Positions 1,012-1,660 of a stretch of DNA of 10,740 bases are shown here, in pieces (within the stretch, counting starts at the first letter, position 1; each line of letters starts with the position of its first letter). Source of the DNA: a virus (Duplodnaviria > Heunggongvirae > Uroviricota > Caudoviricetes); the IMG/VR virus record IMGVR_UViG_2513237361_000016. One strand, 5' to 3'. A program made the translations under genes and the position numbers. The notes beneath the pieces are model-generated. The model was given only the letters and a program-made list of their open reading frames with translations. It was not told the origin of the DNA and did no database searches.

Positions 1012-1660
1012 GCCGCCATCTCCCTGACCAGTTTTTCCGCCTGCTGGCGAACCTGCACCAGAAAGGCTTCACCACATGCCTCAAGTTCATCGCGCCCGAT
1101 GTAGCTGATTGCCGGTCCCTTCCAGGTCTTGTCGAAAACAGCAATAGCACCAGCGAAGAAAGCGCCTGTCGGCACCTGCTTCTCATCCTTCGGGATAAAC
1201 CAGGCAGGCAGTTCAAAACCAATACGCCCGCGAATAAAAGCAATATGGTCCGCATCTTCCGGCCACCACACTTCGCTGGTGGCAGCTTTGATCAGGAAAA
1301 CATAGCGCCCGCCCTTATCACGCATGGCACTGGCATGTTTCATGATGTAACGCATGCCGGTGATGTATTGCCCCTCATGCTGACTGGCGCGGCTGTATGG
1401 GGGATTACCAAAGGCAGCACCTTTAAGCTCCGCAAGACGTTCTGACCAGTCATGCGCCAGCGCGTTATCTTCCGCCGTGTAATACGCGGCACATTTGGCG
1501 TTATCACCGTCAGTAAACAGATCCAGAACAAACGGGCCAAACAGGGTGTTAATTCCCCAGAAAATGTTGTCCGGGTGCGCCACTGATCGCCCACTTCCTT
1601 CAGTTCATGGGCTGGTTTGTTCCGCAGTTCCACCAGCGCCTGGCAATATTTATTACTCAT
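1008..1660 (-). pseudogene. Phage Dam-type N6-adenine DNA methyltransferase, interrupted by a frameshift near 1573-1583
   Basis: C-terminal ORF 1008-1583 has the NPPY catalytic motif (FGNPPYS). A 26-codon N-terminal piece (MSNKYCQALVELRNKPAHELKEVGDQWRT) starts at ATG 1660-1658 in another frame, with a TAATG overlap to the upstream gene. One extra G in the GGG run at 1573-1575 would give a continuous ...DQWRTPDNIFWG... reading. Confidence 0.6.

What the first reader, a model, noticed from the sequence alone, without database searches (positions are those of the whole stretch)
1560..1600. Frameshift in the phage Dam-type methyltransferase gene at a G3 homopolymer
The N-terminal 26 codons and the catalytic body are in different frames. 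Adding one G to the GGG run at 1573-1575 gives a continuous protein (...KEVGDQWRTPDNIFWG...). This is either genuine pseudogenisation in a decaying prophage or a homopolymer sequencing error. The downstream frame could also start independently at GTG 1583-1581.
Basis: seen in the sequence. Interest (0 to 1): 0.35.

Follow-up and report, generated by a model that had tools for sequence, protein, structure and literature searches.

The report
One-base deletion breaks prophage methylase gene
A well-known prophage DNA adenine methyltransferase gene in this Escherichia marmotae draft genome lacks one base that every other known copy has; this is either an assembly error or a very recent inactivating mutation, and is ordinary either way.

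Summary
On the minus strand a Dam-family (PF05869/TIGR01712) gene starts at ATG 1660, changes frame at 1574/1575, and continues as a 191-aa ORF (GTG 1583 to stop 1008).

The homopolymer explanation does not hold. Six relatives read ACG-CCG (+ strand GGCGTG). The window lacks that one base, so the deletion itself created the GGG run.

The deletion is private to this sequence:
- No exact match at any of 2,464 places in 5,426 complete E. coli genomes, in 41 phage records, or in three contig collections.
- The 191-aa product occurs on one contig only, Escherichia sp. TW09308 (AEME01000001.1).
- The flanking 700 nt are identical to intact 217-aa alleles.

The break falls inside a D-x-W-x-T-P motif that is invariant in 60 diverse homologs.

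Across 8,974 comparable bases the window has no private substitutions. It has two single-base deletions; the second is a T7-to-T6 change at 7604-7609.

I estimate about 55% draft-assembly error and about 42% genuine recent pseudogenisation. Only reads or Sanger sequencing can decide. Nothing here is new biology.

The parts
1008..1660 (-). Whole phage N6-adenine methyltransferase gene (Dam family), 653 nt here against 654 nt in intact alleles.
   Evidence: Apart from one missing base it is identical to the 217-aa gene WP_001305610.1 of E. coli ECONIH5.
1574..1575 (-). Site of the missing base. Relatives have a G on the coding strand (C on the + strand) between these two positions. This corresponds to AEME01000001.1 positions 4,795,558/4,795,559.
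   Evidence: six relatives; no exact match in 2,464 E. coli places or 41 phage records.
1574..1660 (-). Native N-terminal 29 codons (M1-T29). They include D25, W27 and T29 of the invariant D-x-W-x-T-P motif.
1340..1573 (-). Out-of-frame tail (77 codons plus stop) read by ribosomes that start at ATG 1660. It matches no protein family.
   Evidence: This 106-aa product is not in the 15-billion-protein collection.
1008..1583 (-). 191-aa ORF from GTG 1583. It holds the rest of the enzyme (motif I-like LDLFTD, NPPY and the C-terminal helix) but lacks D25, W27 and T29.
   Evidence: TIGR01712 positions 17-165 only; this is the gene call in the source assembly. Shine-Dalgarno-like pairing of -6.4 kcal/mol, against -8.4 for the native ATG.
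1395..1406 (-). Catalytic motif IV, N-P-P-Y, intact in the downstream frame.
   Evidence: P87, P88 and Y89 are invariant and N86 nearly invariant (at least 90%).
1660..2154 (-). Upstream PerC-family gene (yfdN). Its TAA stop overlaps the methyltransferase ATG (TAATG).
685..1011 (-). Downstream LexA-DNA-binding-domain gene. Its ATG overlaps the methyltransferase TGA stop (ATGA), so its translational coupling depends on ribosomes being in the methyltransferase frame.
   Evidence: The coupling itself is inferred.

Best explanation
The window is positions 4,793,985-4,804,724 of AEME01000001.1, the 2011 draft genome of Escherichia sp. TW09308 (cryptic clade V, now E. marmotae). It carries the early region of a lambdoid prophage.

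Its orphan N6-adenine methyltransferase gene is, base for base, the common 217-aa allele found in thousands of E. coli prophages. The only difference is that one base is missing (codon 29 ACG followed by CCG reads AC-CCG).

My preferred reading is that this base was dropped when the draft was sequenced or assembled, and that the strain really has the intact gene. On that reading there is no biological feature here.

Shown:
- The deletion exists in the deposited sequence.
- It is unique to that sequence.
- It cuts an invariant motif.
- The window holds two single-base deletions and no private substitutions.

Inferred: that the cause is technical rather than mutational.

Taken at face value, the sequence predicts two products. 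Ribosomes starting at ATG 1660 make a 106-aa nonsense-tailed peptide. At best a weakly initiated 191-aa protein from GTG 1583 is also made, and it lacks D25, W27 and T29. By conservation it should be inactive.
For: Uniqueness of the deletion:
- A 71-nt probe across the site matches 2,095 E. coli records (2,464 places). None matches exactly; the best all differ by one gap.
- The same holds for 41 phage records.
- An exact 37-mer gives 0 hits in the species-representative genomes, viral contigs and metagenome contigs.
- The 191-aa product sits on exactly 1 contig, whereas the intact protein sits on at least 1,000.
- The other 700 nt of the gene region are 100% identical to ECONIH5 and, as one search's identities imply, to 18 further genomes.

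Pattern of differences in the window:
- Against six relatives, 8,974 nt are comparable. There are 0 private substitutions and 2 one-base deletions absent from all the relatives that cover each site. Both fall near the 5' end of conserved ORFs.
- Spontaneous substitutions outnumber indels roughly 10:1 in E. coli (my recollection of mutation-accumulation studies). An indel-only pattern therefore looks more technical than evolutionary.
- The second deletion (T7 to T6) is seen in only 2 of 205 complete genomes. One is UM146, an older genome that I recall, unverified, was sequenced by 454.

Source quality: the sequence is a 2011 draft. Within 1.6 kb of the methyltransferase gene the record has a mid-gene KilA-N/kefG junction that looks like an unmarked contig join.
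Against: - The lost base is not in a homopolymer, which is where 454, Ion Torrent and nanopore indel errors concentrate. Illumina assemblies rarely create indels.
- About 9 kb of adjacent core genes in the same record (kefB, slyD, fkpA, tusBCD, rpsL, rpsG, start of fusA) all have normal lengths. The assembly is therefore not riddled with frameshifts. If errors occurred at 2 per 9 kb, seeing none there would have a probability of about 0.13.
- Frameshifts are common in prophage genes under relaxed selection.
- I could not retrieve the sequencing technology or any reads.
- No second assembly of this strain is in the collections. Its unique K88-like protein is found only on this contig.
Confidence: 0.55

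Rival explanations
1. The deletion is a genuine, very recent mutation. One base pair was lost in the prophage copy carried by TW09308, turning the methyltransferase gene into a pseudogene in a prophage that is no longer under selection. Because the frame-A stop lies 330 nt upstream of the next start codon, translation of the downstream LexA-like and RusA genes would also be uncoupled.
For: - The site is not a homopolymer in the relatives, which is atypical for sequencing indel errors.
- Neighbouring core genes in the same record show no frameshifts.
- As deposited, the prophage has only its early region, with a truncated KilA-N gene abutting a truncated kefG. A second ORF is also frame-broken. 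Both fit decay.
- Degraded copies of this gene are known: K-12 yfdM is annotated as this methyltransferase and is described as sharing 91 aa with a Stx2-phage Dam.
Against: - There are no private substitutions in 8,974 nt alongside two one-base deletions. That is unlikely under neutral decay: about 1-4% if indels are 10-20% of mutations.
- No other genome shares the allele.
- The 'remnant' appearance may come from contig joins rather than biology.
Confidence: 0.42
2. The gene is functional as it stands. Translation starts independently at GTG 1583 and yields an active 191-aa methyltransferase, or a protein with some other role.
For: - The ORF exists, and the gene caller used for the collection chose it.
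- A moderate Shine-Dalgarno-like sequence (AAGGAAG, -6.4 kcal/mol) ends 8 nt upstream of the GTG.
- NPPY and most of the fold are retained, and PF05869 still scores 137 bits.
Against: - D25, W27 and T29 are invariant in 60 homologs of 32-88% identity. They are present even in the shortest natural N-termini (P0283, P0270, P0208) and in the 175-aa VT2-Sakai enzyme.
- The only other aligned sequence without them (P0265) is itself visibly frame-garbled.
- TIGR01712 positions 1-16 are missing.
- In the high-confidence model the T-P opens the helix (residues 31-41) that leads into strand 1. In other N6-adenine methyltransferases of this fold such as M.TaqI, the corresponding N-terminal element contributes to the cofactor pocket. 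I infer this from topology; it was not shown residue by residue.
- No other genome has this arrangement.
Confidence: 0.02
3. The two frames are joined on purpose, either by programmed -1 ribosomal frameshifting or by phase variation at a mutable tract.
For: A -1 shift at ACC|CGG would restore the full protein, and GGG/CCC is a short run.
Against: - C-ACC-CGG is not an X-XXY-YYZ slippery site.
- The two-frame arrangement is found in none of 2,464 E. coli copies or 41 phage copies.
- Relatives have ACGCCG at the site, with no tract and no length variation.
Confidence: 0.01

Closest known systems
WP_001305610.1, phage N-6-adenine-methyltransferase (217 aa) of E. coli lambdoid prophages, e.g. strains ECONIH5 and EcE.CRE.COL
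   Same: Nucleotide sequence identical over the 701-nt region compared. Same neighbours (PerC/yfdN upstream, LexA-like and RusA downstream) and the same overlapping stop/start codons.
   Different: The window lacks one base in codon 29, so the protein is split into two frames.
M.EcoVT2Dam (VT2-Sakai orf32, 175 aa), the characterised GATC-specific member of PF05869
   Same: Same Pfam family (E = 6e-65 for orf32). Shared D-x-W-x-T-P, L-D, N-A-L and NPPYS motifs. GATC specificity is as cited in PMC6602927.
   Different: Only 30% identical. It lies in a different place in the phage genome (ninB-ninE region). GATC specificity of the window's subfamily is inferred, not tested. That orf32 is M.EcoVT2Dam is my assumption.
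E. coli K-12 yfdM (CPS-53/KpLE1 cryptic prophage)
   Same: Same gene family and near-identical sequence across the probe region. It is another degraded copy in a cryptic prophage.
   Different: yfdM is a 5' fragment left by a larger truncation (about 91 aa in common with the phage enzyme, bioRxiv 10.1101/413146). It is not a one-base frameshift.
Solved N6-adenine methyltransferases: PCIF1/CAPAM, E. coli Dam, M.TaqI, MmeI, M.BseCI, T4 Dam, DpnM, type I HsdM
   Different: No detectable sequence relationship. The phage enzyme is much smaller and has no separate target-recognition domain.

Membership tests
Phage N6-adenine methyltransferase (Pfam PF05869 Dam / NCBIfam TIGR01712 phage_N6A_met) | Profile score above the curated cut-off | tested here: met
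   Repaired protein: PF05869 156 bits (cut-off 28.1) and TIGR01712 255.6 bits (cut-off 97.05). The 191-aa ORF scores 136.6 and 226.9 bits.
Phage N6-adenine methyltransferase (Pfam PF05869 Dam / NCBIfam TIGR01712 phage_N6A_met) | Catalytic motif IV (N-P-P-Y) present and in frame with the body | tested here: met
   NPPY lies at window 1406-1395. P87, P88, Y89 and S90 are invariant and N86 nearly invariant in 60 homologs.
Phage N6-adenine methyltransferase (Pfam PF05869 Dam / NCBIfam TIGR01712 phage_N6A_met) | N-terminal D-x-W-x-T-P motif in the same reading frame as the catalytic body | tested here: not met
   D25, W27 and T29 are invariant in 60 homologs. In the window they lie in the ATG-1660 frame, while P30 onward is in another frame.
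Phage N6-adenine methyltransferase (Pfam PF05869 Dam / NCBIfam TIGR01712 phage_N6A_met) | Coverage of the family profile from its first positions by a single ORF | tested here: not met
   The intact allele covers TIGR01712 positions 1-165. The 191-aa ORF covers only 17-165, and the 106-aa upstream ORF matches nothing.
Phage N6-adenine methyltransferase (Pfam PF05869 Dam / NCBIfam TIGR01712 phage_N6A_met) | Class I SAM-dependent methyltransferase fold of the N6-adenine type | tested here: met
Phage N6-adenine methyltransferase (Pfam PF05869 Dam / NCBIfam TIGR01712 phage_N6A_met) | N6-methylation of adenine in GATC | not testable with these tools
   Known for M.EcoVT2Dam (cited in PMC6602927), which I take to be VT2-Sakai orf32, 30% identical to this protein. 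A test needs expression in a dam-negative host.
Programmed -1 ribosomal frameshift | Slippery heptamer X-XXY-YYZ at the frame junction | tested here: not met
   The junction reads C-ACC-CGG.
Programmed -1 ribosomal frameshift | Two-frame arrangement conserved among homologs | tested here: not met
   It is found at 0 of 2,464 E. coli places and in 0 of 41 phage records.
Phase-variable homopolymer (contingency locus) | A repeat tract whose length varies among alleles | tested here: not met
   The six relatives I read have ACGCCG, with no tract. No exact match to the window's allele exists in 2,095 matching records.

The most novel reading that the evidence does not exclude
The deletion is real, and the split gene has acquired a role of its own. 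Either the GTG-initiated 191-aa protein lacking D-x-W-x-T-P keeps DNA binding or altered methyltransferase activity, or the 5' fragment acts like the K-12 YfdM fragment, which was reported to promote propagation of another phage (bioRxiv 10.1101/413146).
Probability: 0.02. Interest if true: 0.3.

Novelty: already known. Interest (0 to 1): 0.06.

Why it matters
It matters little for biology. The gene family, its prophage context and frameshifted prophage genes are all familiar, and the lesion is confined to one deposited sequence.

Its practical value is for annotation. The 191-aa 'Dam' call in GCA_000208565.2 should be treated as a frameshifted copy of the 217-aa gene or as a probable assembly error, not as a short natural variant. 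The 264-aa ORF at window 7619-8413 should be treated the same way.

It also shows that a homopolymer seen at a frame break can be the result of a deletion rather than its cause.

Tried and rejected
- **Exact 37-mer across the deletion.** Searched in species-representative genomes, viral contigs and metagenome contigs: no hits.
- **The original genome paper (Luo et al. 2011, PNAS).** Not held in the library. The papers that mention TW09308 gave only its identity and source, so the sequencing platform remains unknown.
- **First structure prediction.** A shallow alignment (76-99% identity) gave a useless model with pLDDT 41. The second, with 60 diverse sequences, succeeded.
- **PDB sequence searches.** Neither the protein nor a family profile found anything.
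- **hhalign of the family profile against M.TaqI.** The M.TaqI sequence was verified, but the alignment was not meaningful (probability 0.8%). The equivalence of D-x-W-x-T-P with the N-terminal cofactor-pocket motif of M.TaqI-type enzymes therefore rests on topology only.
- **Look-up of the window's unique K88-like protein.** I hoped it would find sister prophages. It returned only the same contig.
- **Programmed frameshifting and phase variation.** Considered and rejected: no slippery site, no tract in relatives, no conservation.
- **Promoter and terminator scan of 900-2300.** It found nothing above the shuffle expectation.

Full report
**What is in the sequence.** The gene lies on the minus strand.
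- An ORF starts at ATG 1660-1658. Its A is shared with the TAA stop of the upstream PerC/yfdN gene.
- It encodes MSNKYCQALVELRNKPAHELKEVGDQWRT and then runs out of frame for 77 codons to a stop at 1342-1340.
- The rest of the enzyme is in another frame, as the 191-aa ORF 1583..1008 that opens with GTG (VAHPDNIFWGIN...NPPY...).
- The + strand reads GGG at 1573-1575.

The only amendment is that 29 native codons precede the break, not 26.

**What the gene is.**
- The repaired protein matches Pfam PF05869 (Dam) at 156 bits, covering profile positions 3-167 of 169.
- It matches NCBIfam TIGR01712 (phage_N6A_met, equivalog) at 255.6 bits, covering positions 1-165 of 165.
- The 191-aa ORF still scores well, but only from TIGR01712 position 17. 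The upstream 106-aa ORF matches nothing.
- An AlphaFold2 model of the intact allele P0043 (one residue different from the repaired protein), built with 60 diverse homologs, has mean pLDDT 94.1.
- Sequence searches of the PDB find nothing.
- VT2-Sakai orf32 (175 aa) belongs to the same Pfam family and is 30% identical. I take it to be M.EcoVT2Dam, the characterised family member, reported to target GATC (PMC6602927). GATC specificity for the window's subfamily is therefore an inference.

**What the relatives show at the break.**
- A 701-nt query covering the gene matches 2,642 E. coli records. The best 19 are 99.9% identical and span 702 nt, which means a single gap.
- In alignments with ECONIH5 and TUM11352 the gap is the only difference from ECONIH5. 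The relatives read CGC ACG CCG GAC where the window reads CGC AC- CCG GAC.
- Four more relatives agree.
- On the + strand the ancestral sequence is CCGGCGTG and the window is CCGG-GTG. The GGG run was therefore created by the loss of the C. It is not a shortened G4 tract, so the homopolymer part of the interpretation does not hold.
Both encode Thr, so the predicted protein is nevertheless right.

**How widespread the deletion is.**
- A 71-nt probe across the site matches 2,095 records (2,464 places) in 5,426 complete E. coli genomes. None reaches 99%; the best are all 98.6% over 72 nt.
- The same holds for 41 phage records.
- An exact 37-mer is absent from the species-representative genomes, viral contigs and metagenome contigs.
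- The 191-aa product is recorded on exactly one contig, whereas the intact 217-aa protein is on at least 1,000.

**Where the window comes from.**
- That one contig is AEME01000001.1 of GCA_000208565.2 (4,809,826 bp). The window is its positions 4,793,985-4,804,724.
- This accession belongs to Escherichia sp. TW09308, a freshwater isolate of cryptic clade V, now E. marmotae, from the 2011 environmental Escherichia genome study (PMC7716201, PMC12446263, PMC3466228).
- I could not obtain the original paper or the sequencing platform.

- In an alignment of 60 homologs (32-88% identical to the intact allele P0043) only 15 columns are invariant. They include D25, W27 and T29, alongside D47, N54, N66, A67, P87-S90, G145, R146, P152 and G197.
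- The shortest natural N-termini still carry the motif: P0283 has MSVIEKASDLWQTP, P0270 has ...IRDSWRTP, and P0208 has MKEVGDQWRTP.
- VT2-Sakai orf32 has DCWQTP at residues 12-17.
- tblastn alignments to distant phage homologs (Staphylococcus, Lactococcus, Clostridium, Vibrio phages) begin at query residues 22-25.
- The only other aligned sequence without the motif, P0265, is itself visibly frame-garbled.
- The GTG has a moderate Shine-Dalgarno-like complement of -6.4 kcal/mol, against -8.4 for the native ATG. It is the only in-frame start upstream of NPPY. Some 191-aa protein could be made, but it would lack three invariant residues.
- In the model the T-P opens helix 31-41, which leads into strand 44-50 (FVLDLFT). 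This is the position of the N-terminal cofactor-pocket element in M.TaqI-type enzymes. I infer that from topology. hhalign could not align the two, and I had no model coordinates.

**Real mutation or artefact?** I compared the window with six E. coli relatives over the 8,974 nt that align at 95% identity or more.
- The window has no private substitutions. At every site its base is found in at least one relative.
- It has two one-base deletions absent from every relative that covers each site (all six at 1574/1575, five at the T-run). One is at 1574/1575. The other is a T7-to-T6 change at 7604-7609.
- The T-run change breaks the 5' end of a conserved 288-aa ORF (WP_001075212.1) and leaves the 264-aa ORF 7619-8413.
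- The T6 allele occurs in 2 of 205 complete genomes, UM146 and MEI008.

Evidence pointing to a technical cause:
- Differences that are indels only are what sequencing or assembly errors look like. Under neutral mutation, substitutions should outnumber indels about tenfold (my recollection of E. coli mutation-accumulation data), giving roughly 1-4% for this pattern.
- The record is a 2011 draft. It contains a mid-gene KilA-N/kefG junction only 1.6 kb from the methyltransferase gene.

Evidence pointing to a real mutation:
- The methyltransferase deletion is not in a homopolymer.
- About 9 kb of adjacent core genes have normal lengths.
- Prophage genes do decay.

No independent assembly of this strain, or of a sister prophage, is in the collections: the window's unique K88-like protein occurs only on this contig. 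I therefore put artefact at about 55% and a genuine recent deletion at about 42%.

Programmed frameshifting and phase variation are excluded. There is no slippery heptamer, no tract in the relatives, and no other genome with the arrangement.

**Consequences if the deletion is real.** The genes yfdN, the methyltransferase gene, the LexA-like gene and rusA are linked by overlapping stop/start codons (TAATG, ATGA). Ribosomes starting at ATG 1660 would stop 330 nt before the next gene, so downstream coupling would be weakened. This is an inference. Loss of this orphan methyltransferase would probably have no visible methylation phenotype, because host Dam is expected to modify GATC already.

**Verdict.** This is a known gene with an ordinary lesion, confined to one deposited draft sequence. 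The proposed mechanism (homopolymer) and the proposed way out (a GTG start) are not supported. Interest is low.

Noticed in passing
window 7548-8413 (+), T-run at 7604-7609: There is a second one-base deletion. Five relatives have T7 here and the window has T6. This breaks the 5' end of a conserved 288-aa hypothetical gene (WP_001075212.1) next to the integrase and leaves a 264-aa ORF from ATG 7619. The T6 allele is also in 2 of 205 complete E. coli genomes, UM146 and MEI008.
   Followed up: partly
window 1-42 (L003 about 11540-11583): The prophage KilA-N gene stops after 92 codons and runs straight into the 3' part of the chromosomal kefG gene (a 76-aa fragment), followed by kefB, slyD and so on. 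No antiterminator Q, lysis or structural genes follow. This is either a real deletion or rearrangement, or an unmarked contig join in the draft record. There are no Ns at the junction.
   Followed up: partly
window 5585-7394 (-): Two K88/F4-type fimbrial subunit genes (PF02432; 277 aa at E = 2e-64 and 289 aa at E = 2e-48) sit where E. coli relatives of this prophage carry yfdP-yfdQ-yfdR. No usher or chaperone gene was called near them. The 277-aa protein is found on no other contig in the collection.
   Followed up: partly
L008 1-4187 (AEME01000001.1 4,805,640-4,809,826, just beyond the window's right end): The record ends inside a P4-like island (psu, a NACHT-domain protein, an integrase). 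Its integrase is followed by only the last 42 nt of ssrA, and no tmRNA gene is detected. The lambdoid prophage's integrase-side cargo genes come next. In E. coli TUM11352 the same prophage end abuts glaH. This is either a tandem island array or another assembly join.
   Followed up: partly
proteins P0032-P0054 and others (not in the window): Many singleton 379-382-aa 'PerC + Dam' fusion proteins appear in public assemblies. They probably come from frame errors or mutations at the TAATG overlap between yfdN and the methyltransferase gene.
   Followed up: no
L002 7007-7317 and the equivalent positions in L004-L007: A small hypothetical gene upstream of yfdP is annotated 'frameshifted' in all five E. 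coli relatives with the yfdP module. It looks like a shared pseudogene or a consistent annotation artefact. That module is absent from the window.
   Followed up: no
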